A DNA stretch of 64,000 nt from Candidatus Wolfebacteria bacterium GW2011_GWB1_47_1. GTDB taxonomy: Bacteria > Patescibacteriota > Minisyncoccia > UBA6257 > UBA9933. Both the position numbers and the translations under genes were made by a program. Below are positions 3,776-54,601 of this stretch, one piece after another. Under the pieces are notes generated by a model that searched no databases, was not told the DNA's origin, and saw nothing but the letters and a program-made list of their open reading frames with translations. Location of the stretch: assembly GCA_001029635.1 (NCBI GenBank), contig CP011209.1, positions 747,969 to 811,968 of the forward strand, given 5' to 3'. The first letter of the stretch is position 1; the number at the start of each line of letters is the position of its first letter.

Positions 3776-3776
3776 T

Positions 3777-8044: not shown

Positions 8045-8045
8045 A

Positions 8046-8849: not shown

Positions 8850-8889
8850 ATGTTTGAATTATATTCCGCTGTAAAGTAAAGTAAAGAGT

Positions 8890-10449: not shown

Positions 10450-10516
10450 ATTTGTCTTAAGTTAACTCAAGACAACATATCGATAACCTGTAGGCATAAC
10501 CTACGGGTTATTTCTT

Positions 10517-10714
10517 ATGCAGGAAGTTGCCGTCGAAAATGAAGTTAGAAAAGGCTTCAAAATAAATGATTTATCTCTTGAGGAAAGGCAAAGACTGGTC
10601 GGTGCTTTTGCGTGGCTCATAGAACAAGACAAGAAGCAAAATCCTGCACTTTATCAACCTAAAAAACAAGACGAAGATGATAGATACAATATGCCTTCTG
10701 ATACCCAAGAATAG
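10517..10714 (+). CDS. small acidic hypothetical protein (65 aa)
   Basis: ORF track; preceded by the hairpin aacctgtaggcataacctacgggtt. Confidence 0.3.
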   Translation: MQEVAVENEVRKGFKINDLSLEERQRLVGAFAWLIEQDKKQNPALYQPKKQDEDDRYNMPSDTQE

Positions 10715-11819: not shown

Positions 11820-12228
11820 TGCTACTCCATAAATGGTCCCAAATATAAACATTACAAAATAAATTATTATGAAAAATAAAAAGTATAAAATCGATAAGGA
11901 CGAACGACTTGTTGGAATTATAAAAATGGCCTTTGAGCAGTATTATCGCAAGGTTATCTCGGATAATATAAAGAGGTCTTTGGCGCAAAAGCGAGCCAAG
12001 TTGTCCACTAACCCTAAAGTTGCTCTGTAAAGTAATGTAAAGTATAATGAATACCATTATGGAGCCTGAGGAACTCCCAAATGAGAAGGTTAATCGGCGT
12101 ATGGCTATTTTGTTTTGGACATTATCAGTCTGCGCCTTTATGATTATATTTCAGTTAGCAAATCTTATGGTCCCCGAATTATTTCCTCCGTCTTCTATCG
12201 CTCAATCAATATAAGCAGCTGCAACATT

Positions 12229-12411
12229 ATGAACACTAACAAAAAGAACTTCTACAAAGCAGAAGACCTCGCGAAGTTATTAGAGGTAAACATTATGACG
12301 ATTTACCGATATATTAAGGCTGGTCGCTTAAAGGCGTATAAAATTGGTCGTGAGTTTCGAATTGATAAAATTGAGTTTAGTGCTTTTTTAGAAAAAGCGC
12401 GGACTAAATAA
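12229..12411 (+). CDS. excisionase-family HTH DNA-binding protein
   Basis: IMTIYRYIKAGRLKAYKIGREFRIDKIEFSAFLE matches the excisionase/MerR-type HTH. The ORF track entry starts further upstream, at 12115. Confidence 0.65.
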   Translation: MNTNKKNFYKAEDLAKLLEVNIMTIYRYIKAGRLKAYKIGREFRIDKIEFSAFLEKARTK

Positions 12412-12413
12412 AT

Positions 12414-14207
12414 ATGACCGAAAAAGAATTATCACAACAAAAAGAAAGTCGCATCATCAAACTTGAGAAGGAAATTGAAAGATGGAAAAAGGCGGTCAAA
12501 ACCCAGCGCTACGGTTTAGTATGGCTCGATGTGCCTGAAGCATTTGAAGACGATGTCGAAAATAAATTACCCATTCTTGAGGAAGTGCCTAAAAAGGCGA
12601 TAAGGAGTAAGGATGCCAAGCCAACTCATCTACTTATTGAAGGCGATAATTATCACGCGCTTACTTGTTTAAACTACACGCACAAGGGAAAGATTGATGT
12701 AATCTATATAGACCCCCCGTACAATACTGGCTCCGATGGTTTTAGATATAAAGACAAGAGGATATTAAAAGAGTATCCAGACGGTACGGAAGTCCCGAAA
12801 GACCATCCATTTAGGCACAGCTATTGGCTATCTTTTATGAGTAAAAGGTTGGAACTTGCAAAAAGCCTACTAAAAGATACTGGTACTATATTTATTTCGA
12901 TAAATGAAGATGAGTTTGCGCAGCTCAAGTTACTTTGCGACCAAACATTTGGATTAGAAAATTATCTAACAATGTTCACTATTAAGGTAAGACACGAGGA
13001 GCGCATCCTTAAAGGCGATAAAGATTTCCACGAAGTCGTGGAATATCTTTTAATGTATAGATGCTCTTCTGCCTATAAAACCACGAAGAAAATCTATGAT
13101 AATACTTCATTGGATGAATATATTTATCAAGTCATTGAAAAAATAGAGCACCCTAAATCTGTTAAGCTTGGCAATAAGATGGTTGATTATTTTGAGCCAT
13201 CAGAATATGAGATTATAAAGGTGCCAGCGAGTGAGCACAACTTAAAGAAAATAAATATCCGTGGTTCTCTAAAAGAGGGCAATAGTAGTGGTAGATTTTA
13301 TATGGCTCATATTGCTTCAAGAGGTACCAAAGGTGTGCTTTATAAGGTACCAGATATGGGCAATGACAAGTTTGGACATAGATATTTTCTAATACCCGCA
13401 AAAGAAAGCAGGCTAAATGGGGATTATTTTCAGGGGGTACCACTGGACATACAGGACACGAAGAAAGTCCCCTACCCTAACTATTTTGACTTTGAAGCAC
13501 AGTTTAATAGCGTTGGGTATGAGGGGGGTGTCAGTTTCGGGGGCGGCAAAAAGCCAGTCGAGTTTCTTGCGCATTTTATAAATATCGGTTGTACGGATAA
13601 AAATGCAACTATATTAGATTTTTTTGCTGGCTCGGGAAGCACTGGGCACGCAGTTATGCAAATGAATGAAGCCGATAAGGGCAAGAGACAATTTATTTTG
13701 ATTACAAATGATAACGAAATCGTCAAAGATAAAGTTTATCATCCAATGTCTGAGGCGTGCCTGCCACGAATGCAGAACTTGATTAAAGGCTATGACAAGA
13801 ACCCGAGCTTGGGAAACTCAATTAAATACTACAAAACAGCTTTTGTAGGCAAACATAACATTCTTGATGCTGACGACAAAGATAAAATACAGCTCGCCCA
13901 TAATGCAGGGGGTATGCTTGCGATAGCTGAGAATACCTTAGAGCAAATTAAGGGAAACGATTATTGGCAGATTTTTGAAAGTGAGACCAGAATGACTGCT
14001 GTATATTTTAGAGAAGAGCAAGACCAGCTCGATGATTTTATAGACGAAGTCCTATTACTTGGAAAGCCAGTAACCGTATATATGTTTAGCTGGGAAGAAA
14101 AAGTGGATATTGTTGATTTTGAAGAAAATCGAAATATCAGCCTCAAAACAATACCGCAACCCATTCTTGAGATATATAAGCAGATATATAACATTGCTCA
14201 GTTATGA
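12414..14207 (+). CDS. mod: Type III R-M DNA methyltransferase (Mod, beta-class N6-adenine/N4-cytosine MTase)
   Basis: Motif IV IYIDPPYNTG precedes motif I FFAGSGSTGH (beta order), with a TRD between them. The stop overlaps the res start (ATGA). Confidence 0.8.
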   Translation: MTEKELSQQKESRIIKLEKEIERWKKAVKTQRYGLVWLDVPEAFEDDVENKLPILEEVPKKAIRSKDAKPTHLLIEGDNYHALTCLNYTHKGKIDVIYIDPPYNTGSDGFRYKDKRILKEYPDGTEVPKDHPFRHSYWLSFMSKRLELAKSLLKDTGTIFISINEDEFAQLKLLCDQTFGLENYLTMFTIKVRHEERILKGDKDFHEVVEYLLMYRCSSAYKTTKKIYDNTSLDEYIYQVIEKIEHPKSVKLGNKMVDYFEPSEYEIIKVPASEHNLKKINIRGSLKEGNSSGRFYMAHIASRGTKGVLYKVPDMGNDKFGHRYFLIPAKESRLNGDYFQGVPLDIQDTKKVPYPNYFDFEAQFNSVGYEGGVSFGGGKKPVEFLAHFINIGCTDKNATILDFFAGSGSTGHAVMQMNEADKGKRQFILITNDNEIVKDKVYHPMSEACLPRMQNLIKGYDKNPSLGNSIKYYKTAFVGKHNILDADDKDKIQLAHNAGGMLAIAENTLEQIKGNDYWQIFESETRMTAVYFREEQDQLDDFIDEVLLLGKPVTVYMFSWEEKVDIVDFEENRNISLKTIPQPILEIYKQIYNIAQL

Positions 14208-16579
14208 ACATATTCAACCCATCAAAATTTCAAAAAGATGCCGTCATAAATCTAACAGAGATTTTTACTACGGTATGGAAGCAACAAGGTAGACAATTAC
14301 CTATTGTTTTTAAATCCCCGACTGGAAGTGGTAAGACTTTTATGACCTCCCTTTTCATCCGCGGCCTTAACCACCTACCACAGTGGAAAGAAGATAAAGC
14401 ATTTATATGGATTACTTTTAGCGATGATTTGGCTATGCAAAGCAAAAATAAGTTTCTTGAGTATTTTGAAAATATGCTTGAAAATAGAGCTTTGACCGTT
14501 GCAGATATAAATCAAGGCAAACTCTACCAAAATGATATTTTATTTTTAAACTGGCAAAAGGTTACTGCCAAAAATGCTAATACGCGATTAATTCGCCGCC
14601 CCGAAGATAAGGAATGGCAAAAGGAACAGGGAGAATACTTTGAAGATGTGGTCGAACAAACTCAAGCCGATAGTAGACAAATTATCTTAATAATTGATGA
14701 GGCTCACAAGAATAAAGACACAAAACTCGCAAAGGATATTATTGATAAAATTGACCCTAAGGTAATTCTTCACATTACTGCGACACCAAACGAGAAAGAC
14801 GAACTTGAAGCTCGTCGTATTGGCAGTTTTTATGAGGTCCCCCGAGAGGAAGTTGTTGAGCAGGGCTTAATCAAAGAAGCAATCATTACTCAAACGGAAG
14901 AAGATTTCGAGGGTATGTCGGGAAAAGACCTTGATAAAATCCTCCTCGAAAATGGGATGAAAAAACGAGAGGAATTAAAAGCAGAACTTAAATCACTGGG
15001 TAAGAATATAAACCCTTTGATGCTTATACAGTTACCAAATGATGATGATAAACTTATAGAAAAGGGCGAACAGAAGAAGGAGGATATCGTTACTGATTAT
15101 CTTCTTAAAAATAAGGTTCCCGAGCATAGGATAGCAAAATGGTTTAATAAGAACCCTCGGCCAAATAATTTAGAAGAGCTCAGCGATGAGCACGACTTTT
15201 TACTCTTTAAACAGGCGGCTGGAACAGGCTGGGATTGCCCTCGTGCATCAGTACTTGTAATGTTTAGGGAAATACAATCGAATACCTTTTATACTCAAAC
15301 CGTTGGGCGTATTTTAAGAATGCCTGAGCCTCACGCAAAAGAAGATTATAAAAATAACCCCAATCTTCGCTTGGGATATTTATATACGAACTACAAGCGC
15401 AAGGAGGTAATAATACCAGACCAAAATCCCGCCAATCAACCTTTGACTGAGTTTGCCCATAGGAAGAAGGACATAAGCAATATCGAATTACCATCTGACT
15501 ATATTTCTCGCTTAGATTATGGCGATATTCGCGTATCTTCTAAATTTCAAGAAGTATTTAAAACAGAACTAAATAAGCACTTCGGGATTACTAATAATGA
15601 TATTCTTGGAAAAGCAGAAACGAAGCTTAAAAAGGCAGGGTTGGACATTAGCGATACTTTAGTAAATGAAGTTATTGCAAATGCTCGTTTCGAGGATTAT
15701 GACAATCTCGCCTTTGATTTCAGTAAAAAAGGCAGCGATATTTCACTTGAAATGTCAGTAAGTGATATTGAAAAGACTTTTAATTATCTTTGTTATCAAA
15801 TCCTAAGGGAGCAGGAAGACGAGGGAGCTAAGTACTCAAATGTGGCTCGCTCTTGGTCAGTCTTAAAACAAGCGCTTCGCGTCTGGTTTAAAATCGTTTT
15901 GCGAGATGACCATATTTACTGGTATAAGATATTTATCAAAGATGTTCGCAAGGGCGCTGAGAGCAAATTTCGCCCAGCAATAACAAGGGCCTTACGAGCT
16001 TATAAGCCAATTTCTGACAGTCTACTAACCGACAAGAAAATAAAGGTAGAGGAAAAGGAAGCATATATTTTTACCATACAAGGCGAATATGGGTATCCCG
16101 AGCAATACAAAGTTGTCCCTCAGAAGTTATGCGCCTTGGATAAGTTTTACTTGCCCGAAGATTACAATGGGCGTAAAAATGAAATTGCCTTTGTTGAATA
16201 TCTGGAAAAAAAGAAAGGAAAAATTGATTGGTGGTTTAAAAATGGCAATCAGGGAAAGAAGTACTTGGGCGTTAAATACACAAACTCAATAACGAACGAG
16301 GATGGCTTATTTTACCCCGACTGGATTATTCGTTTTCCTGATGGCCGTATAGGTATTTTCGATACCAAAAAAGGAGATACTGCTACAAGCACTGAAACAG
16401 CAGATAAGACAAAGGCATTGCAACAAAAACTTAAGAGTTTTGGAAAAAAGTTTCTTGGCGGTATCGCATATCAAGAAGCGGGCATTTGGTACTACAATGA
16501 TAGCCCCAAATACTCTTTTAAAGAGGGGCAATCGGTAAACGATAGCAAAGAATGGAAGCCTTTTGAGGATTTATTCTAA
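14204..16579 (+). CDS. res: Type III restriction enzyme Res subunit (SF2 helicase plus PD-DxK nuclease)
   Basis: Walker A SPTGSGKT; DEAH box LIIDEAHKN; motif VI TQTVGRILR; C-terminal PDW...IGIFDTKKG nuclease motif. Confidence 0.75.
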   Translation: MNIFNPSKFQKDAVINLTEIFTTVWKQQGRQLPIVFKSPTGSGKTFMTSLFIRGLNHLPQWKEDKAFIWITFSDDLAMQSKNKFLEYFENMLENRALTVADINQGKLYQNDILFLNWQKVTAKNANTRLIRRPEDKEWQKEQGEYFEDVVEQTQADSRQIILIIDEAHKNKDTKLAKDIIDKIDPKVILHITATPNEKDELEARRIGSFYEVPREEVVEQGLIKEAIITQTEEDFEGMSGKDLDKILLENGMKKREELKAELKSLGKNINPLMLIQLPNDDDKLIEKGEQKKEDIVTDYLLKNKVPEHRIAKWFNKNPRPNNLEELSDEHDFLLFKQAAGTGWDCPRASVLVMFREIQSNTFYTQTVGRILRMPEPHAKEDYKNNPNLRLGYLYTNYKRKEVIIPDQNPANQPLTEFAHRKKDISNIELPSDYISRLDYGDIRVSSKFQEVFKTELNKHFGITNNDILGKAETKLKKAGLDISDTLVNEVIANARFEDYDNLAFDFSKKGSDISLEMSVSDIEKTFNYLCYQILREQEDEGAKYSNVARSWSVLKQALRVWFKIVLRDDHIYWYKIFIKDVRKGAESKFRPAITRALRAYKPISDSLLTDKKIKVEEKEAYIFTIQGEYGYPEQYKVVPQKLCALDKFYLPEDYNGRKNEIAFVEYLEKKKGKIDWWFKNGNQGKKYLGVKYTNSITNEDGLFYPDWIIRFPDGRIGIFDTKKGDTATSTETADKTKALQQKLKSFGKKFLGGIAYQEAGIWYYNDSPKYSFKEGQSVNDSKEWKPFEDLF

Positions 16580-16584
16580 ACATT

Positions 16585-18120
16585 ATGAAAGCAATAATCG
16601 TCGCACGAGTATCAACTGAAGAACAAAGAGAAGCTGGTAATTCCCTACCCGCTCAGCTTACTCGTATGCAAGATTATTGCGAGCGGAATGGCTATTCTAT
16701 AATCGAGACTTTTAGTTTTGATGAGAGTGCTTACAAAACCAAGCGCGACGAGTTCGATAAAATCATTGCCTGCGTAAACGGCACAAAAGAAAAGGTTGCC
16801 GTTTGCTTTGATAAAGTAGACCGCCTATCACGCAATATCTTTGATAAGCGGGTTGCCTTACTTTACGAGCGAGCTGTTGATGATAAAATCGAGCTTCATT
16901 TTGTCTCCGATAACCAAGTCATCAACAATAAAATGTCGGCTGGCGACAAGTTTGCGTTCGGAATGAAACTCGGGTTGTCTAAATACTATTCGGATGCAAT
17001 CAGCGATAATGTAAAACGCGCGTTTGAGCAAAAGCGCAGAAATGGCGAATGGACCAGTGCCGTTCGATTGGGATATCTTAATGTTTCCTTAGATGCAGAA
17101 CAGCGGTTACGCAAGGATATTATCATAGACCCCGAGCGAGGGCATCTTATTCAAAAACTATTTGAGCTATATGCAACTGGGAACTACTCACTTGAGACGC
17201 TACGAATAAAAATGATTGAAATGGGCTTAGTGAGCCAAAAGGGTTTCAAGCCGTCAAAAAGCTGTATCGATAATATACTAAATGACACTTTTTACTGCGG
17301 TGTCGCTATGTCAAAGAAATATGGCTCTTTCCCCCATAGATACCCTCGTCTAATAACAAGGGAACTTTTTGATAGGTGCCAAGAGATACGCTTAAATCGC
17401 GTCAAAATGCCCAATAAGGCGCTTTCCAAGGACTTTATATTCAAAGGGTTACTCCGATGTCAGAACTGCGGTTGTTCAATAAGCGCCGAGAGAAAGATAA
17501 AGAAAAGTGGCCGTGAGTTTGTCTACTATTCCTGCACTAATGGCAAAGGTATATGCAAACGGGTGTATATACCCGAAAAAGACCTTCTAAGGCCCGTGTA
17601 CGAGGTTTTAGAGCGGTTTGAGAGCATAACAGAAGAGACACAAAATGAGCTTGTCGCCGAGCTTCGTAAGAATACGGAGGCCGAGGTAGTATTTCACAAG
17701 GCTCAGATAAACCGCATACGAGGCGAATACGAACAGATTAAGACGAAAGATGACCGACTACTTGAGGCATATTTGGACCAGTGTATTACTAAGGACATCT
17801 ATGACAAAAAACATCAAGAGTATGCGGATAAGCTACAGGTTTTGAATATTGAACTTTCCGAGTATACAAAAGCGGACCACGATTACCAAACGACTATTGC
17901 TACCGTGCTTTCTGTCGCTCGCAGAGCAAAGACTATATTTGAGAAAAGTTCTGAAGTTGCAGGAAAACGGGCGTTTCTGAATTACATACTTCAGAACCCG
18001 ACTGTAAACGAAAAAACGCTTGGTTTTACCTTGCGTTCTCCGTTCAACTTAGTCCTAAAACTTGCTGATTGTCCTAACTTGCTCCCCGGGAGGGATTCGA
18101 ACCCCCGACCATCTCGTTAA
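16585..18120 (+). CDS. large serine recombinase (paralog of 6395..8044)
   Basis: VARVSTEEQ catalytic Ser; VDRLSRN; CQNCGC...CTNGKGIC zinc ribbon. The last 13 codons are encoded by the tRNA-Asn 3' half. Confidence 0.85.
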   Translation: MKAIIVARVSTEEQREAGNSLPAQLTRMQDYCERNGYSIIETFSFDESAYKTKRDEFDKIIACVNGTKEKVAVCFDKVDRLSRNIFDKRVALLYERAVDDKIELHFVSDNQVINNKMSAGDKFAFGMKLGLSKYYSDAISDNVKRAFEQKRRNGEWTSAVRLGYLNVSLDAEQRLRKDIIIDPERGHLIQKLFELYATGNYSLETLRIKMIEMGLVSQKGFKPSKSCIDNILNDTFYCGVAMSKKYGSFPHRYPRLITRELFDRCQEIRLNRVKMPNKALSKDFIFKGLLRCQNCGCSISAERKIKKSGREFVYYSCTNGKGICKRVYIPEKDLLRPVYEVLERFESITEETQNELVAELRKNTEAEVVFHKAQINRIRGEYEQIKTKDDRLLEAYLDQCITKDIYDKKHQEYADKLQVLNIELSEYTKADHDYQTTIATVLSVARRAKTIFEKSSEVAGKRAFLNYILQNPTVNEKTLGFTLRSPFNLVLKLADCPNLLPGRDSNPRPSR

Positions 18121-18262: not shown

Positions 18263-19618
18263 TCACATTATTGCGCTTTTAATATGCGCTGGAATATCTG
18301 CTTTAGTAAGCAAAACCTGCTCCCCGGTCTCCATGTTCTTTACGGCGAATTCGCCCGAGGCGATCTCGTCCTCTCCTACCAATATCACAAACGGGATTCC
18401 CAATTTGTTTGCGTAGGCAAGCTTGTTCTTCATCTTCACGTCTTCGAAATATACTTCTGCCGCTATCCCCGCTTCGCGCAGGGTCGTTGCAATCTCCAAT
18501 GGTATCGCCATATCGGCGACCAACGGAACCACCAACGCCTTTGTCGGCGTTGCCGCGCCCAATTCGATAAGCCCTATGTCTTTTAACTGAGAGAATAGTC
18601 GCGTCAATCCGATCGAAATACCAACGCCTGGCAATTTTCGCTTGGTGTATTTTTCTGCAAGGTTGTCGTATCGCCCTCCGGAACAGATCGATCCCAATTC
18701 TGAATGTTCGCGCAGTATCGTTTCGTACACCGTGCCGGTGTAGTAATCCAGTCCGCGTGCGATGGTCAGGTCTATTGCATAGCAATCGGGCGGTACGCCA
18801 AGTACCTTCAAATAGTGCGTTACTTCCTCCAGCTCTTTTATGCCGGTTTGGAATAGCTCATTTTCTATGCAAAGATTTCGTAGCGCGTTCAATACATCCT
18901 CAGGAGTACCCTTGATATCTGTGAAGGTAAAGATCTCTCTGATGGTGTTATCTGGTACTCCTAGCTCGACTAGTATGCCATGCACTTCGTTTTGGCCTAT
19001 CTTCTCGAGCTTGTCTATCGTTTGTATTACGCCTACGGACATATTGCCCGTTTCCAATGATTCCAACAATCCTCCTATAAGCTTTCTATTGCTGATCCGG
19101 ATCACAAACGCGCCGATATTGAGCTTGCTAAATACGTCATAGATTACGCTCGGAATCTCGGCATCATTCATAAGGCTCAACGATCCATCGCCAATAATAT
19201 CGATATCTGCCTGATAGAATTCTCGGTAGCGCCCTTTTTGCGATCGCTCGCCCCGATACACCTTTGCAATATGACTTCTGCGAAACGGAAACACGAGATC
19301 GTTCACGTGTTCGCTCACATATCGCGCCAACGGCACCGTCAGATCAAAACGCAATGCGAGTTCGTTGTCTCCTTTTGTGAATTGATAGATCTGCTTTTCG
19401 GTCTCTCCTCCCGCCTTTGCTAGCAGCACCTCCGCACGCTCTATGACCGGCGTATCAAGCGGAGCGAACCCATAGCGTTGATATACTTCTGCGATCGTGT
19501 TTTTTATGCGATCAAACACGATCTGCTCGGCTGGGAGCAGTTCCATAAAACCAGGTAGTACTCGGGTTGGGATCTTCTCATCCATTTTTTTTACTTCACT
19601 CATATCTTGCTGGGTCAT
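18263..19618 (-). CDS. hisS: histidyl-tRNA synthetase
   Basis: Class II aaRS motifs and HisRS signature DLTVPLARY; 451 aa. Confidence 0.9.
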   Translation of the reverse strand: MTQQDMSEVKKMDEKIPTRVLPGFMELLPAEQIVFDRIKNTIAEVYQRYGFAPLDTPVIERAEVLLAKAGGETEKQIYQFTKGDNELALRFDLTVPLARYVSEHVNDLVFPFRRSHIAKVYRGERSQKGRYREFYQADIDIIGDGSLSLMNDAEIPSVIYDVFSKLNIGAFVIRISNRKLIGGLLESLETGNMSVGVIQTIDKLEKIGQNEVHGILVELGVPDNTIREIFTFTDIKGTPEDVLNALRNLCIENELFQTGIKELEEVTHYLKVLGVPPDCYAIDLTIARGLDYYTGTVYETILREHSELGSICSGGRYDNLAEKYTKRKLPGVGISIGLTRLFSQLKDIGLIELGAATPTKALVVPLVADMAIPLEIATTLREAGIAAEVYFEDVKMKNKLAYANKLGIPFVILVGEDEIASGEFAVKNMETGEQVLLTKADIPAHIKSAIM

Positions 19619-48166: not shown

Positions 48167-48667
48167 TTAGAACGTCGCGGATGCGACAATCTCGCGGCAT
48201 TTTGCGATAATCGCCGCCTTATCGGCGTCCGTCAGTCCGGTACGCATTACAGGGTAATGCAAAAACAATCTGCCGAATTCCGGTCCTCGAGTACGTATTG
48301 CTCCAATAAGGTGCCCTTCCTTTAGGATGCCGGCGTAGCCGGTGCCTTCCCCATTGAATACCAATGGGGATTCAACTGGCGGATCCTGAACCATAGGAAA
48401 CTGTTTCAGGGTCATAGTCGCTTCACATGCCACCACCAGTACCTCGACATCGCTCTTCCGCTTAACTTCATCGATTTTATCGGCTATTTTGCGCAACTCC
48501 GCGGCAGTATACCTGCGTCCGACCAACGGGCCATACTGACATAGGCCATATTGAGATTGAAATGATACTTCTCCGCTATAATCGCCGATAGTCCCCAAAA
48601 ACTCAGTAGATCCTCTTCTTACATCGGTTACCGCATTCCGATCATCGAATCCTATTTCTGAATCCAT
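48167..48667 (-). CDS. hypothetical protein (166 aa), paralog of 48761..49171; possibly GlcG/DUF336-like
   Basis: AAGGAGG SD; own TTGACA promoter; shares YTAAELRKIADKIDE / YSSAELREIADKVDE and C-terminal A(I/V)(A/K)KC(R/A)E with its neighbour. Confidence 0.5.
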   Translation of the reverse strand: MDSEIGFDDRNAVTDVRRGSTEFLGTIGDYSGEVSFQSQYGLCQYGPLVGRRYTAAELRKIADKIDEVKRKSDVEVLVVACEATMTLKQFPMVQDPPVESPLVFNGEGTGYAGILKEGHLIGAIRTRGPEFGRLFLHYPVMRTGLTDADKAAIIAKCREIVASATF

Positions 48668-48760: not shown

Positions 48761-49171
48761 CTATTTCCTTGCGAGCTCGGCGCATTTGACTGCGATCTCC
48801 ATCATTTCTTCTGGAGAAACCGAGCGTCTATTGGAATTTTGCCACGACTTCCATCTCCCGGGCCATCTCCCGTCTATATTTATCGTTCCGAGAGCCCCTT
48901 TTCTGTTGTGGACAATTAGTGCGGCCCCGACTGGACCATCTACTTGAATAAACACTAACGCCGTTTTTTTGCTCTCCCCCTCCTGTAATTCATCCACTTT
49001 GTCGGCGATCTCCCTCAACTCCGCAGAAGAATAGCAGTGCCCATTCTGAGCTCCGTGCAAACACAGAAACGCTCTTTTCCCACCCAACGTACTGACCGCC
49101 CCTAAGCGCCAGCTGCCCCTCATTACGTTTTGGCAAACGCCATGCTCCGTAAAGCTAAGCTTTTTGGACAT
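48761..49171 (-). CDS. hypothetical protein (136 aa), paralog of 48167..48667
   Basis: GGGAGG SD; TTGACA-17-TATAAA upstream. Confidence 0.5.
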   Translation of the reverse strand: MSKKLSFTEHGVCQNVMRGSWRLGAVSTLGGKRAFLCLHGAQNGHCYSSAELREIADKVDELQEGESKKTALVFIQVDGPVGAALIVHNRKGALGTINIDGRWPGRWKSWQNSNRRSVSPEEMMEIAVKCAELARK

Positions 49172-49671: not shown

Positions 49672-50349
49672 TTACATTTCGCCACGGTCGGCAAAGATCG
49701 CGCAATCACCAACCGCTTGCGGTTGCGGTTCCTTTGCGTGACTGTTGCTCGGCTGTTCCGCTTCGCCGAAGTCGGCCAGCTTGAGGAGCTGCAGAAGCAT
49801 CTCGTCCTCCAGGTTATTTACACCCCTTACTCTCTGCTCGGTTACGGGGCGGTATCCAACCTTTACTTCCTCGCCCTTATAGTGAGCACTGTTGTATGTA
49901 TAGATACCTGGAGAATATGTTTCCCATTGCCCTTTGCCGCCGGCGATCGCCAAATGATCGTGTCCATTCCTAACGATTTCAGCATGACCGAACGGCGTAT
50001 CTTCGGAAAACGTCTGTCGCGCCAAAGCCTCCAGTCTTCCGAATGCAGGACCAAATCTTACCTCCCGTTCGGCACATTTTTTTACGAATTCCTCTGCTTT
50101 TGCGCTGATCTCCTTCCACTGTTCGAGCGTGAACGTATTAGAATAGGACATGATTCTCGAGGAATCATCTTCGATCTTCGTTCCGGAAATGGTAATCCTG
50201 CCACTCGCTCGTATGTGACCGATATGCTCCTCGCCAAGAAGCATATCAACCGCGAGCTCCGTGAAATAGCTCACGCCCTTGCGGATACTCATAAATTGCC
50301 GCATCCCTTCTTCAAATCTCAGTGTCGGGCTCTTCTTTTCCTCGGTCAT
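49672..50349 (-). CDS. hypothetical protein (225 aa)
   Basis: AAGGAG SD 7 nt upstream; ORF track. Confidence 0.5.
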   Translation of the reverse strand: MTEEKKSPTLRFEEGMRQFMSIRKGVSYFTELAVDMLLGEEHIGHIRASGRITISGTKIEDDSSRIMSYSNTFTLEQWKEISAKAEEFVKKCAEREVRFGPAFGRLEALARQTFSEDTPFGHAEIVRNGHDHLAIAGGKGQWETYSPGIYTYNSAHYKGEEVKVGYRPVTEQRVRGVNNLEDEMLLQLLKLADFGEAEQPSNSHAKEPQPQAVGDCAIFADRGEM

Positions 50350-50596: not shown

Positions 50597-51154
50597 TCAT
50601 AAATTCCTCACGAGCGCATCCACCTTCCGCAGTAGATCCTCCCGCTCGCCTTCGTTTATGATCAGGAAGTCCGCCATTGCGATCGGCCCCGCCTGATGCA
50701 GGTTTTCGATCTGCGATCGGTCACGACTCCAGGCCTCGGCCGCCGTCAACGGGCGCTTAGGGCGTATCGCAAGACGCGCATAACGGATCGCCGGCGATGC
50801 ATGTACCGCGACAACTAGAAACGCGCTCCCGAATACGTCCCTAAAGCGCATAAATTCTTCCCAGGAATAGAGGCTCTCAACCAGAACATGCGGTGTGTCG
50901 ATTATAGGTTCGATCTTCTGAATCACCCGCTCGGCATAAACCAACGGACCAAACTCGCTACGCAGACCTTCGCGGACAGCCCGTTCATTCTCCTCACTGA
51001 TTGCCAGTCCGCGACGCGCCATCTCATCGAACGTGACTTCCCCAAAATATACTTTTGGCCATCCATACCTTTCGATAATATACTCGACGACCTCAGTCTT
51101 CCCCGCGCCTGACAATCCGATTATGGCGATGATCTTTCTCTGACCTTCCATACA
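50597..51154 (-). CDS. P-loop nucleotide/nucleoside kinase (dNMP- or dephospho-CoA-kinase-like)
   Basis: Walker A IIGLSGAGKT close to the N-terminus; AGGAGG SD before MEGQRK; ~185 aa, the size of small kinases. Confidence 0.55.
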   Translation of the reverse strand, partial: CMEGQRKIIAIIGLSGAGKTEVVEYIIERYGWPKVYFGEVTFDEMARRGLAISEENERAVREGLRSEFGPLVYAERVIQKIEPIIDTPHVLVESLYSWEEFMRFRDVFGSAFLVVAVHASPAIRYARLAIRPKRPLTAAEAWSRDRSQIENLHQAGPIAMADFLIINEGEREDLLRKVDALVRNL

Positions 51155-51306
51155 AGTACCTCCTTCTGTGTTTAATGGTCTGGCGTCAGTATGACTCCTT
51201 TTTTTGCAGATTTCCACTCTTTGACAATACTTATTGTATATGGTTATATTTCGACAGAATCATTATCAATCAGTAATCCATATCACACCAGAAAACGGAG
51301 GTTCAC

Positions 51307-52134
51307 ATGCAACAGTATCTTGATCTCATCCAGGATGTTCTCAACAATGGAAAGCGTAAAGGCGACCCCCACGGCATCGGCAATCTCGCTGTATGCGGGC
51401 GGACCATGCGCTTCGACCTCACTGAGGGGTTTCCTCTCATCACCACCAAAAGCATGAAGAGTCTGTGGAAGTCTGTCATCGGCGAACTGCTTTGGTTCCT
51501 TTCGGGGAGTACGAGCATCGCCGATCTCAAGGCGTACGGTGTCAACTTCTGGGACCAGTGGGCGGACCAAAAGACCTGCGATATCATGGGTCTTCCGCTC
51601 GGCGAACTCGGACCGATCTACGGCAAACAGTGGCGCGCCTTCGAAGGAGGTGGCCCCAAGCCCGTGGACCAGATCCAACAGCTCGTCAACGATCTCAAGA
51701 CCAGTCCCGATTCACGAAGACTGATCGTCTCGTCCTGGAACCCGGTCGACGCAGATCGCGTGTTCGTAGCTCCCTGCCACTGCTTTTACAAGCTGTATCA
51801 CGCAGAGGGAGAGCTCTCCCTGCATCTGTTCCAGCGGAGTGGGGACATGCCCATCGGTATCCCTTTCAACATCGCGGAGTACTCACTCCTTCTGATGATG
51901 TTGGCGCAGATCACCGGGCTCAAGGCAAAAGAGTTCATCCATACCATTTCTGACACCCACATCTATCTGAACCAGATCGAGTTCATGCGCGAGCAACTTA
52001 CCCGCGATCCGCGGCCGTTGCCTAGCGTGACCCTCAATTCCAACATCACCGACATCTTCGGCTTCACCCCCGACGACTTCATTCTTACGGGGTACGATCC
52101 GCATCCTTACATCAAGATCCCCGTCGCGTGGTAA
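51307..52134 (+). CDS. thyA: thymidylate synthase
   Basis: APCHCFYKLY active-site Cys region; GDTHIYLNQ; C-terminal GYDPHPYIKIPVAW. Confidence 0.9.
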   Translation: MQQYLDLIQDVLNNGKRKGDPHGIGNLAVCGRTMRFDLTEGFPLITTKSMKSLWKSVIGELLWFLSGSTSIADLKAYGVNFWDQWADQKTCDIMGLPLGELGPIYGKQWRAFEGGGPKPVDQIQQLVNDLKTSPDSRRLIVSSWNPVDADRVFVAPCHCFYKLYHAEGELSLHLFQRSGDMPIGIPFNIAEYSLLLMMLAQITGLKAKEFIHTISDTHIYLNQIEFMREQLTRDPRPLPSVTLNSNITDIFGFTPDDFILTGYDPHPYIKIPVAW

Positions 52135-52158
52135 CCCGCGATACACAAGGAGCTCTCT

Positions 52159-53142
52159 ATGATCATTTCGGTCATCTTCGCCATGAACGGCGATCGCATC
52201 ATTGGCAACAAAGGCGGTCTGCCCTGGCATCTGCCGAGCGATCTGCACCGATTCAGAGCACTCACCGCCGGCAAGCCGGTCATCATGGGGCGTCGGACCT
52301 TCGAGTCCATACTCGCCCGCAACCGAAAGCCGCTTCCCGACCGCTGTAACGTGGTCGTCACCCGCAATATCGCACCGTGGAAGCATCGCCAGAGCACGCA
52401 CCCCGAAATGTTTCGCAACTGCGTCTTTGTCGAATCGCTTCAGCAGGGCATCCATCTGATGAACCCCTCTCCCGAGGTATTCATCATTGGAGGGTCTCAG
52501 ATCTACGCACAGGCACTCTCGTTCGCTGACCGGATGTACTTCACACAAGTGCAGGGTAAATTTGAGGGAGATACAACATTCCCCCAGTTCAACCCGCACC
52601 AGTGGAGGACCGTCCATGACGAGCTCATACGCACAGACAACCATCCGTATGCGTTCTCGATCCTGGAGCGTCTCGACACCGGCGCGTCACTCGGATCAAC
52701 TTCGGGTACCGACCTGGTCAACCCGACCTTTGCCAAAAGCGAAGGGTATGGCAAGACCATTACTGAAATCATCGAGGCGGGCATCTGCCCGTTCTGCCCC
52801 GAACACTTCCTTTGGCATCCCTGGCCGATCCTACATCGCTCCGGCGACTGGATCCTCACTCGTAGCGGATGGCCGTACGAGAACGCAGAGCATCACTTCC
52901 TCATCATCGGAAACAAACACCTCATCGCCGACATCGACATGAGCGATGCCGACGACCATCATGTAAAAGGACTCACCCGATGGGCCATCGAACAATTCGG
53001 CCTCAAAGGATGGGGGAAGATCGCTCGTTCTGGCGAAACAAGCCACACCGGCGCGACCGTACAGCATTTGCACTACCATCTCATCCAGCCCAAACCGGGC
53101 CTGGATGGAAAGGCACTGCCAGTCAACTTCCCGATCGGATGA
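52159..53142 (+). CDS. folA: dihydrofolate reductase fused to a C-terminal HIT (Hint-like) domain
   Basis: Residues 1-165 are DHFR (GGLPWHLPSDL, VIMGRRTFESI, FIIGGSQIY). Residues ~200-327 carry CPFCP plus the histidine triad HLHYHLI. Confidence 0.8.
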   Translation: MIISVIFAMNGDRIIGNKGGLPWHLPSDLHRFRALTAGKPVIMGRRTFESILARNRKPLPDRCNVVVTRNIAPWKHRQSTHPEMFRNCVFVESLQQGIHLMNPSPEVFIIGGSQIYAQALSFADRMYFTQVQGKFEGDTTFPQFNPHQWRTVHDELIRTDNHPYAFSILERLDTGASLGSTSGTDLVNPTFAKSEGYGKTITEIIEAGICPFCPEHFLWHPWPILHRSGDWILTRSGWPYENAEHHFLIIGNKHLIADIDMSDADDHHVKGLTRWAIEQFGLKGWGKIARSGETSHTGATVQHLHYHLIQPKPGLDGKALPVNFPIG

Positions 53143-53159
53143 TATGGATCCACAAAAAA

Positions 53160-53186
53160 GCCCCGCGCATGCGGGGCTTGTTTTTA
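53160..53186. terminator. bidirectional terminator aaaaaagccccgcgcatgcggggcttgttttt
   Basis: Hairpin with flanking A- and T-runs between convergent folA and the deaminase gene. Confidence 0.55.
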
Positions 53187-53201: not shown

Positions 53202-54056
53202 TCATGCCACATGGACGATCTCGACCCCCCGACTCCTGAGAATGCTTTCTCCCTCCAGATAAGCGCACCCGGAAGAAAAGTACAGTCGGGAAATTCCAGA
53301 TTCAGCTACGAGGCCAGCGCAAGGAGTGCACGGGAACACCGTGACATACAAATGCATGCCTTTGAGCGGGATGCCTTCGCGCGCAGCCCTGGCCACGATC
53401 CCTGCCTCGGCATGAATCGTGGACGCCAGCTCCGGGCTCGTGCCCGCCCGCACAAAGTCGCGCGGATCCCCTACAGCATACGGCGTATGCTCGCTCGGAA
53501 GATGTTTGTTGTGCGCCATCAACAAGACTTGCCTGCTTTCCGGATGGATCACCGCCGCACCTACTTGGCGCCACCAGCATGAGGTCTTTTGCCCCTCATC
53601 CTCCGCGGCCCGTATCGCCTCCTTATCGGCGAGGTCCACGGTCCTCCAGTCGAAGTTGACCTTTACTTCCAATTTTACTCGGTTAGGATCCCATCGGAGA
53701 AACACCGACTCTTTTACGACCGACTCTTCCGGGAAGTAGTGCTCAACGAAGCTTCTGCTTGCCTCATCGTTCGCGACAATGATCTGCCGTCCGTGTAGTC
53801 GCTGCAAGAACGCCAGCGACTGCCTGTTGAGCACCTCCACATGCGGGAATATCCGCAACCCCCGAATCGCCTTTACGACATCCTTCGGATCCATTGCCCT
53901 GATCTCGCGCACGCCGGGTTGAAGCTCTCGCATCATCTCGTTCCCAAACACGTAGCATGCCTCGATGCGATGCCGGTACCGCTCAAACAGATCGATATAC
54001 CCCTGATGGAGCACCGGCACATACAGCACGAGGAAACTTCTTATGAACGCATTCAT
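53202..54056 (-). CDS. dCMP/CMP-type deaminase domain protein with ~130-aa N-terminal extension
   Basis: C-terminal HAEAGIV...PCTPCAGL zinc-binding signature of the cytidine/deoxycytidylate deaminase fold. Confidence 0.65.
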   Translation of the reverse strand: MNAFIRSFLVLYVPVLHQGYIDLFERYRHRIEACYVFGNEMMRELQPGVREIRAMDPKDVVKAIRGLRIFPHVEVLNRQSLAFLQRLHGRQIIVANDEASRSFVEHYFPEESVVKESVFLRWDPNRVKLEVKVNFDWRTVDLADKEAIRAAEDEGQKTSCWWRQVGAAVIHPESRQVLLMAHNKHLPSEHTPYAVGDPRDFVRAGTSPELASTIHAEAGIVARAAREGIPLKGMHLYVTVFPCTPCAGLVAESGISRLYFSSGCAYLEGESILRSRGVEIVHVA

Positions 54057-54601
54057 ACCAGCCCCCTTTCCTTAAGCATCGTGATGATCGGCGCCAGACA
54101 GTCCCGCAGAATCCTGAAGACCAGATTCGATGTACTCGTTTCTGCCTGCCGAGGAAGCATCTTTACCTCTCCGCAATATTGCTTGATCTCCTCGATCTGC
54201 TCCGGCGGGTATGAGTCGTCGGTAATGATGAACGTATCTACCTGAATCTCTTTGATCAGACCGTACTGCCACCTTCCTTCTTCGTCAACGTCGTCGAGTA
54301 ATAGGATAAGGTCCACACACTCGAGATAGGACAGCATCTCCATTCGCTCATCCTGGACAACCATAGGGCGCATGGAATTTTTCTTGTACAGCTTGATCGC
54401 ACGGTCACTATCCGTACCGACGATCAACACATCACCCTCTTCCTTCGCCTTCATCAGGTATCGGACATGCCCCACATGCAACATGTCCCACGATCCGATT
54501 GTCACGATAATCCTGCAGCCTTGTGCCCGCAGTCCTTCGACGATCGCCAGCAGTGCCCTTGGGTCCTTTACCACCTTCTTCTTGTGATCAAGTAGATGCA
54601 T
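54053..54601 (-). CDS. cytidylyltransferase-like nucleotidyltransferase (HxGH motif; RfaE domain II / glycerol-3-P cytidylyltransferase-like)
   Basis: TIGSWDMLHVGHVRYL; 182 aa; 4-nt overlap with the deaminase gene. Confidence 0.6.
   Translation of the reverse strand: MHLLDHKKKVVKDPRALLAIVEGLRAQGCRIIVTIGSWDMLHVGHVRYLMKAKEEGDVLIVGTDSDRAIKLYKKNSMRPMVVQDERMEMLSYLECVDLILLLDDVDEEGRWQYGLIKEIQVDTFIITDDSYPPEQIEEIKQYCGEVKMLPRQAETSTSNLVFRILRDCLAPIITMLKERGLV

What the first reader, a model, noticed from the sequence alone, without database searches (positions are those of the whole stretch)
52159..53142. Dihydrofolate reductase fused to a HIT/Hint-like domain
A single 327-aa ORF has a complete DHFR followed by a domain with the Hint N-terminal CxxC (CPFCP) and the histidine triad HLHYHLI. 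I do not recognise this as a standard architecture. It sits beside thyA, a dCMP-deaminase-like gene and a small kinase, so the HIT module may act on a nucleotide intermediate of dTMP synthesis. The block is GC-rich and SD-bearing.
Basis: partly seen in the sequence, partly recalled or inferred. Interest (0 to 1): 0.6.

Follow-up and report, generated by a model that had tools for sequence, protein, structure and literature searches.

The report
DHFR fused to HIT nucleotide hydrolase
A Wolfebacteria (CPR) gene really does fuse a normal dihydrofolate reductase to a divergent HIT-type nucleotide hydrolase, and this uncharacterised HIT enzyme always sits with a cytidylyltransferase-like gene, an extended dCMP deaminase and a thymidylate synthase, which suggests an undescribed step in how these tiny bacteria make thymidine nucleotides.

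Summary
ORF 52159-53142 (+) is one uninterrupted 327-aa frame. It encodes a catalytically intact FolA-type DHFR (aa 1-171), a hypervariable linker (172-186), and a HIT domain (187-327) carrying CPFC and HLHYHLI. A predicted structure, a profile search against solved structures and Pfam hits in relatives all place that domain in the HIT superfamily, nearest the Hint branch.

It is not a frameshift artefact. 108 distinct DHFR-HIT proteins (22-83% identity in the HIT part) were recovered, always in this order. Some relatives keep folA and hit as separate genes with overlapping stop and start codons.

The same HIT subfamily, fused or free, lies beside a cytidylyltransferase-like gene and a dCMP-deaminase-like gene with a novel N-domain in all 28 fetched loci (about 23 distinct). 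A thymidylate synthase (ThyA or one of two divergent types) was identified in 27 of the 28; the exception, L008, duplicates the L007 arrangement and its Thymidylat_synt gene was not compared. All source-named genomes are Patescibacteria except three bins named otherwise.

The best reading is a bifunctional enzyme made by fusing operon neighbours, whose HIT half releases a pyrimidine (d)NMP for the dCMP deaminase-ThyA-DHFR cycle. The substrate is inferred, not shown.

Databases call the protein plain "DHFR". No paper describing the fusion was found. I class it as a new variant of known kinds, of moderate to high interest.

The parts
51221..51250 (+). Sigma-70-like promoter (TTGACA-18-TATATT, 11/12) upstream of thyA, in the divergent intergenic region shared with the kinase gene
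   Evidence: This is a consensus match only; function was not shown.
51307..52134 (+). thyA, canonical thymidylate synthase (275 aa), first gene of the thyA-folA::hit operon
   Evidence: Pfam Thymidylat_synt E=2.6e-98. NCBIfam NF002497 scores 341.8 bits, above its cut-off of 327.
52147..52152 (+). Shine-Dalgarno AAGGAG, 6 nt before the ATG at 52159
   Evidence: Read.
52159..53142 (+). The whole DHFR-HIT ORF (327 aa plus stop)
   Evidence: A protein in the same 90%-identity cluster, AKM78579.1 (327 aa), is named 'dihydrofolate reductase' from Candidatus Wolfebacteria.
52159..52671 (+). DHFR domain (aa 1-171), FolA type. The catalytic and NADPH-binding residues are invariant in 30 fusions: W23, D28, F32, T36, G44-R45-x-T47, I110-G-G112, Y116, T129
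   Evidence: The model has TM-score 0.87-0.94 to solved bacterial DHFRs. The model's pLDDT is above 90 across this domain.
52672..52716 (+). Inter-domain linker (aa 172-186). It is 2-22 residues long in relatives and hypervariable (18% mean identity, against 49% for DHFR and 43% for HIT)
   Evidence: pLDDT is 65-78 here.
52717..53139 (+). HIT domain (aa 187-327): an N-terminal helix, the CPFC knuckle, the WPYEN motif, H246, H254, R290-S-G292, G298-A-T300, the triad H303/H305/H307, and a C-terminal F-P-I-G
52786..52800 (+). CPFCP (C210, C213 invariant). Together with invariant H254 and H303 this is a probable structural Zn site, by analogy with GalT C52/C55/H115/H164
   Evidence: The zinc assignment is inference from established knowledge and was not tested.
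53065..53085 (+). Histidine triad HLHYHLI. H303 and H305 are invariant. H307 is H in most sequences and Q in about 30 of 145 family members (E and N once each)
53158..53179 (.). Bidirectional intrinsic terminator (9-bp stem with 7 GC pairs, T-runs on both strands) between the convergent folA::hit and deaminase genes
   Evidence: sequence.
53202..54056 (-). dCMP-deaminase-like gene (284 aa). The C-terminal zinc deaminase has intact HAE and PCxxC. A conserved N-terminal domain of about 140 aa and unknown fold carries PV[LIV]HxGY, DIRA and FLRWD
54053..54601 (-). Cytidylyltransferase-family (PF01467) gene (182 aa) with intact HxGH and TSTS motifs. It overlaps the deaminase start by 4 nt, which suggests translational coupling
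   Evidence: The nearest solved relatives are ethanolamine-phosphate cytidylyltransferase (3elb, E=3e-31), a 173-aa 'putative cytidylyltransferase' (5x9q, E=8e-29; I recall this entry as HldC), CCT and TagD.
50597..51217 (-). P-loop dNMP-kinase-like gene. The true start is probably the internal ATG near 51151, judged from the shorter L009 homologue. It is an accessory member of the cluster and is also next to thyA in L009

Best explanation
The ORF encodes a genuine bifunctional protein: an active NADPH-dependent FolA-type dihydrofolate reductase joined by a short flexible linker to a catalytically competent, divergent HIT domain nearest the Hint branch.

The fusion arose, probably more than once, by loss of the stop/start overlap between two neighbouring, translationally coupled genes (folA, hit). 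These genes belong to a Patescibacteria-specific gene cluster for thymidylate synthesis. The core of that cluster is HIT, an HldC/ECT/TagD-like nucleotidyltransferase, a dCMP deaminase with an extra N-domain, and a thymidylate synthase.

My proposed mechanism is as follows. His305 attacks the alpha-phosphate of a pyrimidine nucleotide conjugate, most likely a (d)CMP-X compound made by the neighbouring nucleotidyltransferase, or a (d)C/(d)U polyphosphate. This forms a covalent NMP-His intermediate, which is then hydrolysed to release (d)NMP. The deaminase converts dCMP to dUMP. ThyA makes dTMP and dihydrofolate. The fused DHFR regenerates tetrahydrofolate.

The fusion guarantees 1:1 co-expression. 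Because HIT enzymes are dimers, it probably also dimerises DHFR.

Shown here: the architecture, intact catalytic residues in both halves, the fold, and the conserved gene neighbourhood. Inferred: enzymatic activity, the identity of the substrate, dimerisation and zinc binding.
For: Architecture is real:
- The frame is uninterrupted.
- 108 of 280 fetched proteins carry both domains, always with DHFR first, at 241-347 aa (three below 300 are probably fragments).
- Both halves are similarly conserved (49% and 43%), while the linker is not (18%).
- The full-length model has pLDDT 91.4 and pTM 0.86.

DHFR is intact:
- Searches support this.
- CPR folA genes complement E. coli delta-folA (PMC11974145). 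It is not known whether those genes were fused forms.

HIT is intact:
- It has the HIT fold.
- A subfamily profile reaches E=1.2e-7 against solved HIT proteins.
- Invariant residues are C210, C213, H254, R290, G292, G298, H303 and H305, with S/T at position 300 (the HINT1 S107 position) and H246 (the HINT1 H51 position).

Origin by fusion of neighbours:
- L017 has folA 5480-5992 and hit 5989-6432 overlapping in ATGA.
- L013 has a similar arrangement.
- Fused and free HITs interleave on a neighbour-joining tree, with at least 13 state changes.

Pathway link:
- In all 28 fetched loci (about 23 distinct) and in the window, HIT lies within about 1 kb of the nucleotidyltransferase and deaminase pair.
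- This holds despite different outer flanks (ribosomal proteins, GroEL, ArgRS, SecDF, DnaB) and despite rearranged gene orders.
- Canonical ThyA is detected in 23 of the 28.
- Two loci lacking it (L012, L014) have a 480-aa MtrA-like + TS-like + PterinBD protein next to the trio. L007 has a divergent 280-aa TS, and L008 repeats that arrangement.
- Accessory neighbours are SHMT, a dNMP-kinase-like gene, MazG, NUDIX and a YfbR-like HD nucleotidase.

Operon structure in the window: a promoter-like site before thyA and a bidirectional terminator after folA::hit.
Against: - No biochemical data exist for any member of this HIT subfamily, and no substrate could be identified computationally.
- The window sequence itself is below Pfam's HIT gathering score (14.7 against 21.5 bits).
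- The nearest solved relatives are Hint-type phosphoramidases and acyl-NMP hydrolases, not enzymes known to act on pyrimidine or CDP-linked compounds.
- A two-enzyme route to (d)CMP is less parsimonious than a single pyrophosphatase. MazG, NUDIX or dUTPase-like genes sit nearby in some loci, so the need for HIT is not obvious.
- Gene neighbourhood shows association, not mechanism.
- The neighbour-joining tree is rough, has no bootstrap support, and is biased by searching with a fused query.
Confidence: 0.5

Rival explanations
1. The HIT half is a direct (d)NTP or (d)NDP pyrophosphatase (dCTP to dCMP, or dUTP to dUMP). It would be a functional analogue of T4 gp56, Dut or MazG, and would not need the neighbouring nucleotidyltransferase's product.
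For: - The pathway logic matches the T4 dNTP-synthesis gene set (frd, td, cd, gp1, gp56; from my own knowledge).
- An invariant Arg290 sits at the end of the strand where HINT1 has Asn99. This would suit a polyphosphate leaving group.
- The cluster otherwise lacks an obligatory dCMP or dUMP-generating enzyme.
Against: - It does not explain why the PF01467 nucleotidyltransferase is as tightly linked as the deaminase (28 of 28 loci).
- MazG, NUDIX or dUTPase-like genes co-occur in some loci.
- I know of no HIT enzyme that acts as a dNTPase.
Confidence: 0.2
2. A 'nucleotide handle' pathway. The nucleotidyltransferase attaches an NMP handle to dCMP or another phospho-substrate, with NMNAT/FAD-synthetase-like chemistry giving a 5'-5' dinucleotide. 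The extended deaminase works on the handled substrate, with its N-domain gripping the handle. HIT, like aprataxin on AppDNA, removes the handle to release dUMP.
For: - The trio is the invariant core.
- The gene order nucleotidyltransferase, deaminase, HIT in L012 follows an activate-modify-release pattern.
- The deaminase N-domain carries an HxGY motif that hhalign places on the transferase's HxGH.
- PF01467 enzymes do make ADP-linked dinucleotides, and HIT enzymes do cleave 5'-5' App(d)N links (established knowledge).
Against: - The hhalign probability is only 1.4%.
- There is no precedent for handled dCMP deamination.
- The deaminase has the ordinary free-dCMP-type signature (S-x-D...VGA, HAE, PCxxC).
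- The selective advantage is unclear.
Confidence: 0.12
3. The HIT half is a generic housekeeping Hint (aminoacyl-AMP or NMP-phosphoramidate hydrolase) with no specific role in thymidylate synthesis. Linkage and fusion would reflect operon compaction in tiny genomes.
For: - The closest solved relatives are Hint-branch proteins.
- The C-terminal F-P-I-G resembles HINT1's W-P-P-G (HINT1 sequence from my own knowledge).
- Some Parcubacteria HIT proteins conferred microcin C resistance in E. coli (PMC7157772).
Against: - Linkage to the same two partner genes persists across 27-71% HIT identity, across rearrangements, and across three non-orthologous thymidylate-synthase types. That is hard to get by chance compaction.
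- The subfamily has its own invariant features (R290, WPYEN, CPFC) that are not typical of housekeeping Hints.
Confidence: 0.12
4. The HIT half is a non-catalytic nucleotide sensor that regulates DHFR or the cluster allosterically, for example by binding dTTP or dCTP.
For: - dCMP deaminases and dNTP pathways are classically feedback-regulated (established knowledge).
- The high pTM (0.86) suggests a fixed inter-domain arrangement.
Against: - The nucleophile His305, H303, S/T300 and G298 are conserved, as expected for catalysis rather than mere binding.
- Free-standing HIT forms exist without DHFR.
Confidence: 0.05
5. Artefact: a missed stop, a sequencing frameshift or a chimeric assembly joining two genes.
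For: Some relatives do have separate folA and hit genes overlapping by 4 nt, so a single-base error could mimic a fusion.
Against: - 108 distinct fused proteins come from independent samples and assemblers.
- They include complete or near-complete Wolfebacteria contigs of 647-984 kb.
- Linkers differ in length and sequence while keeping the frame.
Confidence: 0.01

Closest known systems
Bacterial FolA dihydrofolate reductase (e.g. E. coli FolA; PF00186)
   Same: The N-terminal 171 aa have the same fold (TM-score about 0.9) and 35-40% identity. All catalytic and NADPH-binding residues are present, and the gene sits next to thyA.
   Different: It carries a C-terminal HIT domain. It has an insertion of about 11 aa (aa ~70-88) in the Wolfebacteria clade. 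It scores below the NCBIfam equivalog cut-off (129 against 168 bits).
Hint branch of the HIT superfamily (HINT1, E. coli HinT, bacterial CxxC-containing HITs such as 5UVM and 6D6J)
   Same: It shares the HIT fold, the HxHxH triad with a central nucleophile, an S/T at the HINT1 S107 position, a His at the H51 position, an N-terminal CxxC as in many bacterial HITs, and an aromatic-Pro-x-Gly C-terminus.
   Different: It has an invariant Arg where Hint has Asn99, a WPYEN insertion, an extra N-terminal helix, and the third triad residue exchangeable with Gln. Similarity is only at profile level (E=1e-7). The genomic context lies in pyrimidine deoxynucleotide metabolism.
GalT / DUF4931 branch (nucleotidyl transferases with CPFC and HxHxQ)
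   Same: It shares the CPFC(P) zinc-knuckle spelling. About 30 of 145 family members have HxHxQ. The best single-sequence Pfam hit is DUF4931_N, although only at E=0.012 and below the gathering score.
   Different: It is a single HIT domain, not a tandem duplicate. No GalT or Ap4A-phosphorylase hit was better than E=0.13 in the profile search.
Bifunctional DHFR-TS of protozoa and plants
   Same: It follows the same logic of fusing enzymes of the thymidylate cycle into one polypeptide, with DHFR N-terminal.
   Different: The partner is a HIT hydrolase, not thymidylate synthase. ThyA is a separate upstream gene here.
NitFhit 'Rosetta stone' fusion (PDB 1EMS)
   Same: A HIT enzyme is fused to a metabolic enzyme that is a separate, co-regulated protein in other lineages. 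The fusion predicts a shared pathway. 1EMS appears among the weak hits.
   Different: It involves a different HIT branch (Fhit) and a different partner (nitrilase). Domain order is reversed, with HIT C-terminal here.
Phage T4 dNTP-synthesis gene set (frd, td, cd, gene 1 kinase, gp56 dCTPase/dUTPase)
   Same: It has the same set of activities around dTMP: DHFR, TS, dCMP deaminase and dNMP kinase. The window's kinase hits PHROG dNMP kinase.
   Different: It has no gp56 homologue. A HIT enzyme and a PF01467 nucleotidyltransferase occupy the unexplained slots. No viral relatives of this HIT were found.

Membership tests
Dihydrofolate reductase, FolA type (PF00186) | Sequence match above Pfam's gathering score | tested here: met
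   163.7 bits against 25, aa 3-170.
Dihydrofolate reductase, FolA type (PF00186) | Catalytic Asp (E. coli D27), W22, F31, T113 and Y100 equivalents, and the NADPH 2'-phosphate site (G43-R44-x-T46) | tested here: met
   D28, W23, F32, T129, Y116 and G44-R45-x-T47 are invariant in 30 fusions. The mapping to E. coli numbering is from my own knowledge of FolA.
Dihydrofolate reductase, FolA type (PF00186) | DHFR fold | tested here: met
   TM-score 0.87-0.94 to solved DHFRs.
Dihydrofolate reductase, FolA type (PF00186) | NADPH-dependent reduction of dihydrofolate | not testable with these tools
   Other CPR folA genes complement E. coli delta-folA (PMC11974145). This protein has not been tested.
HIT superfamily | H-phi-H-phi-H-phi-phi motif | tested here: met
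   H303-L-H305-Y-H307-L-I309. H303 and H305 are invariant in 30 fused and 15 aligned HIT-domain sequences.
HIT superfamily | HIT alpha+beta fold | tested here: met
   Foldseek probability 1.0 and E about 1e-5 to HINT1, ecHinT and bacterial HITs, with 78 PDB hits at E<=1e-3.
HIT superfamily | Match to Pfam HIT (PF01230) above the gathering score | tested here: not met
   The window domain scores 14.7 bits against 21.5. However, 20 of 30 fused relatives hit at E<0.01 (best 1.1e-8), and the subfamily profile hits solved HITs at E=1.2e-7. Membership holds at family level.
HIT superfamily | Homodimer and covalent NMP-His catalysis | not testable with these tools
   Inferred from conservation of the nucleophile and its helpers only.
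Hint branch (phosphoramidase / acyl-NMP hydrolase) | Asn99, Asp43 (ribose) and Ser107 equivalents; C-terminal Trp from the partner subunit | tested here: inconclusive
   S/T300 and the C-terminal F324-P-I-G are present. The Asn99 position is an invariant Arg290. The Asp43 position is not conserved in this clade. The residue mapping is by sequence and secondary structure, not by superposition.
GalT branch (nucleotidyl transferases) | Tandem HIT-like half-domains, HxHxQ, and a CxxC/His/His zinc site | tested here: not met
   There is a single domain. The window protein has HxHxH. No GalT hit appeared at E<=10. Only the CPFC spelling and the Q-variants in relatives resemble GalT.
Fhit branch (ApnA hydrolases) | Closest similarity to Fhit, and a C-terminal extension bearing a Tyr | tested here: not met
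   Fhit hits reach only E=2e-3 to 1e-2, weaker than Hint-like proteins. The protein ends 20 residues after the triad.
Bifunctional DHFR-TS | A thymidylate synthase domain in the same polypeptide | tested here: not met
   ThyA is a separate ORF at 51307-52134.
Anti-phage dCTP deaminase (DcdV-like) system | A single protein with a P-loop kinase-like domain plus a deaminase domain, in a defence context | tested here: not met
   The kinase and deaminase are separate genes that each hit part of the PADLOC model. HIT and the nucleotidyltransferase have no PADLOC hit. The cluster lies among housekeeping genes.

The most novel reading that the evidence does not exclude
The HIT enzyme, the HldC/ECT-like nucleotidyltransferase and the N-domain-bearing dCMP deaminase together form a previously unrecognised, Patescibacteria-specific three-enzyme route to dUMP. 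In it the pyrimidine nucleotide is first nucleotidylylated (given an NMP 'handle', or made into a (d)CDP-X conjugate), then processed, then released by HIT. This would be a new branch of pyrimidine deoxynucleotide metabolism that replaces the usual dCTP/dUTP pyrophosphatase steps. The DHFR-HIT fusion would be its Rosetta stone.
Probability: 0.15. Interest if true: 0.8.

Novelty: new variant of a known kind. Interest (0 to 1): 0.6.

Why it matters
Thymidylate synthesis is one of the best-mapped pathways in biology and a classic drug target, so a conserved extra enzyme wired into it is unexpected.

Here a HIT nucleotide hydrolase of unknown substrate is fused to DHFR in over a hundred lineages. 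Fused or not, it is locked to a nucleotidyltransferase and an unusual dCMP deaminase next to whichever thymidylate synthase the genome uses.

This gives a concrete, testable entry point into how CPR/Patescibacteria balance their deoxynucleotide pools. These organisms have minimal genomes and depend on salvage.

It would also assign a first physiological role to a whole HIT subfamily and to the deaminase's novel N-domain. It further corrects database annotation, which lists these proteins as plain DHFR.

Tried and rejected
- **Frameshift or missed stop:** rejected. The ORF is clean, and 108 independent fused homologues have variable linkers.
- **Single-sequence Pfam/PDB search of the C-terminal half:** this gave only marginal HIT scores. 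It was resolved with a subfamily profile and a structure prediction.
- **PHROG and viral searches:** there was no meaningful phage relative of the HIT (phrog_19494 E=0.032; BFVD shows only DHFR matches; the IMG/VR scan found none). A phage origin is rejected.
- **Defence-system reading:** PADLOC gives no hit for HIT or the nucleotidyltransferase. Rejected.
- **Deaminase N-domain:** Pfam, PDB profile, hhalign against the nucleotidyltransferase, and a database profile search all failed to identify it. Only a suggestive HxGY/HxGH alignment at 1.4% probability was found.
- **Literature:** seven full-text searches found no paper describing a DHFR-HIT fusion, this gene cluster, or a HIT enzyme acting on dCTP/dCMP or CDP-diacylglycerol.
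- **MccH-like immunity role (PMC7157772):** considered, but the conserved thymidylate context argues against it. I could not compare sequences with MccH.
- **Recalled link of E. coli Cdh (CDP-diglyceride hydrolase) to the HIT clan:** this could not be verified. No such hit appeared at E<=10, so it is not used as evidence.
Full report
**1. The observation.** The window has a single ORF at 52159..53142 (+) of 327 aa with no internal stop. An AAGGAG Shine-Dalgarno at 52147-52152 precedes it, and it starts 24 nt after the thyA stop. A near-consensus promoter-like site (TTGACA-18-TATATT) lies upstream of thyA. A strong bidirectional hairpin terminator at 53158-53179 follows the ORF. thyA and this ORF therefore look like a two-gene operon converging on the deaminase operon. 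GC is 57% over 52-54 kb against 46-52% around it.

**2. The N-terminal half is an ordinary, intact DHFR.**
- Pfam DHFR_1 matches aa 3-170 at E=3.7e-48.
- The best NCBIfam model is type 3 (FolA) DHFR, at 129 bits.
- The AlphaFold model (pLDDT 91.4, pTM 0.86) superposes on solved bacterial DHFRs with TM-score 0.87-0.94.
- In an alignment of 30 fused homologues, the residues I know to be catalytic or NADPH-binding in E. coli FolA are invariant: W23, D28, F32, T36, G44-R45-x-T47, I110-G-G112, Y116, T129.
- Other CPR folA genes have been shown to complement an E. coli folA deletion (PMC11974145). That paper does not mention a HIT domain.

**3. The C-terminal half is a divergent but intact HIT domain.**
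- Alone it scores below threshold in Pfam (HIT E=0.05, DUF4931_N E=0.012). It is marginal against PDB sequences (HINT1 E=0.015).
- Three independent lines settle the matter. First, a profile of the window domain plus 14 free-standing homologues hits solved HIT proteins at E=1.2e-7 (5UVM) and E=4e-7 (6D6J), with the CxxC aligned to their CxFC. Second, the predicted domain structure (pLDDT 87.9) matches HINT1, E. coli HinT and bacterial HITs with Foldseek probability 1.0 and E about 1e-5. Third, 20 of 30 fused relatives hit PF01230 (best E=1.1e-8) and 19 hit DcpS_C.
- The order of similarity is bacterial Hint-like, then HINT1/2, then Fhit, then aprataxin, then Ap4A phosphorylase. GalT is not detected.
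- Invariant residues across fused and free forms are C210, F212, C213, Y240, H254, R290, G292, G298, H303 and H305. H220, H246, S/T300 and the C-terminal G327 are nearly invariant.
- By analogy with Hint and GalT (established knowledge), H305 is the nucleophile and S/T300 takes the role of HINT1 S107. C210/C213/H254/H303 would form a structural zinc site like GalT C52/C55/H115/H164. The terminal F-P-I-G resembles HINT1's W-P-P-G.
- Family-specific features are an invariant Arg290 at the end of the strand where Hint has Asn99 (position judged from the model's secondary structure), a WPYEN insertion and an N-terminal helix.
- The third triad residue is H in most sequences but Q in about 30 of 145 family members. 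Q is the spelling typical of the transferase (GalT) branch.

**4. The fusion is real, common and recurrent.**
- Searching with the full protein gave about 41 full-length clusters at 31-100% identity.
- The exhaustive 50%-identity library gave many more full-length DHFR-HIT representatives.
- With HMMs for each half, 108 of 280 fetched proteins carry both domains, always with DHFR first.
- Both halves are comparably conserved (49% and 43% mean pairwise identity). The linker is 2-22 residues long and hypervariable at 18%.
- The identical protein is Candidatus Wolfebacteria bacterium GW2011_GWA2_47_9b 'dihydrofolate reductase'. One NCBI model (319 aa) starts too late and removes DHFR strand A, while AKM78579.1 has all 327 aa. 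JGI's pipeline calls relatives 'DHFR / Ap4A HIT family hydrolase'.
- In Azambacteria (L017) and Ryanbacteria (L013), folA and hit are separate genes in different frames. The stop and start overlap (ATGA in L017), with an SD inside the folA 3' end. A one-base change would fuse them.
- On a rough neighbour-joining tree of 145 HIT domains, fused and free forms interleave, with at least 13 state changes. This suggests repeated fusion or fission. The tree has no support values and sampling is biased towards fused forms.

**5. The context carries the main information.**
- I fetched 28 loci (about 23 distinct) through exact-protein look-ups and a GTDB genome scan. The named taxa are Wolfebacteria-like, Abawacabacteria, Ryanbacteria, Nealsonbacteria, Azambacteria, Saccharibacteria, Moraniibacteriota and Paceibacteria, plus three bins labelled otherwise.
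- In every locus the HIT gene, fused or free, lies within about 1 kb of the same two genes.
- The first is a PF01467 nucleotidyltransferase of 175-208 aa with intact HxGH and TSTS motifs. Its nearest solved relatives are ethanolamine-phosphate cytidylyltransferase, a 173-aa 'putative cytidylyltransferase' (5x9q, which I recall as HldC), CCT and TagD.
- The second is a dCMP-deaminase-like protein of 273-293 aa. It has intact HAE and PCxxC, plus a conserved N-terminal domain of about 140 aa (PV[LIV]HxGY, DIRA, FLRWD) that matches nothing in Pfam or PDB.
- These two genes usually overlap by 1-4 nt.
- The outer flanks differ (ribosomal protein operons, GroEL/ES, ArgRS, SecDF, DnaB), and gene orders vary. 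The usual order is thyA and hit converging on the deaminase and nucleotidyltransferase. L012 has nucleotidyltransferase, deaminase, HIT. L014 has nucleotidyltransferase, HIT, NUDIX, deaminase. L025 has HIT, nucleotidyltransferase, deaminase.
- Canonical ThyA is detected in 23 of 28 loci. In L012 and L014, which lack ThyA and DHFR, the trio is followed by a 480-aa protein with MtrA-like, TS-like and PterinBD-DUF4346 domains. L007 has a divergent 280-aa TS with 24% identity to the window's ThyA, and L008 shows the same arrangement as L007.
- The HIT enzyme therefore tracks thymidylate synthesis whichever synthase is used, and whether or not DHFR is present. That ties it to the nucleotide side of the pathway rather than the folate side.
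- Accessory neighbours are SHMT, a dNMP-kinase-like P-loop protein (also in the window at 50597-51217), MazG, NUDIX, a YfbR-like HD nucleotidase and a dUTPase/Dcd-like gene.
- No viral relatives of this HIT were found. It has no defence-system signature.

**6. Mechanism.**
- Shown: a two-domain protein with both catalytic centres conserved, and a conserved gene cluster.
- Inferred: HIT enzymes attack the alpha-phosphate of an NMP-X compound with the central histidine and release NMP. The neighbouring transferase family makes NMP-O-P-X compounds from an NTP and a phospho-acceptor. The deaminase family converts dCMP to dUMP, the ThyA substrate.
- The most economical reading is that HIT releases a pyrimidine (d)NMP, from the transferase's product or from a polyphosphate. 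This would feed deaminase, then ThyA, then DHFR.
- The fusion to DHFR is a Rosetta-stone consequence of operon adjacency. It gives fixed stoichiometry and probably HIT-mediated dimerisation.
- My confidence by level: about 0.95 that the architecture is real and both halves are functional; about 0.75 that the HIT works in the thymidylate/dUMP-supply pathway; about 0.3-0.35 for the specific '(d)CMP-X hydrolase' chemistry.
- The rivals are listed separately with their tests: a direct dNTP/dNDP pyrophosphatase, a nucleotide-handle pathway, a generic Hint, a sensor, and an artefact.

**7. Comparison with what is known, and novelty.**
- Each domain belongs to a well-known superfamily, and similar fusions of pathway partners are known (DHFR-TS, NitFhit).
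- New here are the DHFR-HIT architecture itself, the distinct HIT subfamily, and its invariant partnership with a nucleotidyltransferase and an N-domain-bearing dCMP deaminase next to thymidylate synthases. The architecture is absent from the solved structures and BFVD viral models searched and from the literature I could search, and is annotated as plain DHFR by NCBI.
- I rate it a new variant of known kinds. The interest comes from the pathway implication rather than from the fusion as such.

**8. Limits.**
- I could not inspect model coordinates, so the interface, the Zn site and R290 are unchecked.
- I could not survey whole genomes for complementary gene losses.
- No substrate assignment is possible from sequence alone.

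Noticed in passing
window 1-18120: This is a low-GC block (34-44% against 46-52% elsewhere). It carries two large serine recombinases (6395-8044 and 16585-18120), a DNA methylase (12414-14207) and a ResIII helicase (14204-16579), and it ends next to hisS (18263-19618). It looks like an integrated mobile element carrying a type III restriction-modification system.
   Followed up: partly
window 53637-54056 (-), and the same region of the deaminase gene in L001-L028: The dCMP-deaminase-like gene has a conserved N-terminal domain of about 140 aa (PV[LIV]HxGY, DIRA, FLRWD) with no Pfam or PDB match. hhalign places its HxGY on the HxGH of the neighbouring nucleotidyltransferase, but at only 1.4% probability.
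   Followed up: partly
L014 7796-9238 and L012 7483-8931; L007 5087-5929: In genomes without canonical ThyA and DHFR, the HIT/nucleotidyltransferase/deaminase trio sits next to a 480-aa protein with MtrA-like, thymidylate-synthase-like and PterinBD-DUF4346 domains. In L007 it sits next to a divergent 280-aa TS. These are unusual thymidylate synthases, possibly using another C1 carrier.
   Followed up: partly
window 48167-48667 (-) and 48761-49171 (-): These two tandem small ORFs upstream of the kinase are paralogues (26% identity, E=4e-13) of unknown function. The next ORF, 49672-50349 (-), is not clearly related.
   Followed up: partly
window 52159-52182: One NCBI gene model for this protein (KKU66010.1, 319 aa) starts 8 codons downstream and removes the first beta-strand of DHFR. 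The ATG at 52159 with its AAGGAG, and the 327-aa model AKM78579.1, are the better call.
   Followed up: yes
window 50597-51217 (-) and 53202-54056 (-): The P-loop kinase and the deaminase each match a different part of PADLOC's DcdV-like anti-phage 'dCTPase' model. They look like housekeeping relatives of the two halves of that defence protein (also NF041025).
   Followed up: no
window 52366-52422 (aa ~70-88 of the DHFR domain): The Wolfebacteria-clade fusions carry an insertion of about 11 residues, predicted as a helix at aa 71-80 with high confidence. It is absent from the more distant fusions and from E. coli FolA. Whether it contacts the HIT domain could not be checked.
   Followed up: no
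L020, L022, L024 (genome-contig hits): Three loci carrying the same Patescibacteria-type cluster come from bins labelled Bdellovibrionales, Patiriisocius and Pseudomonadales. This could be mis-binned CPR contigs or lateral transfer.
   Followed up: no
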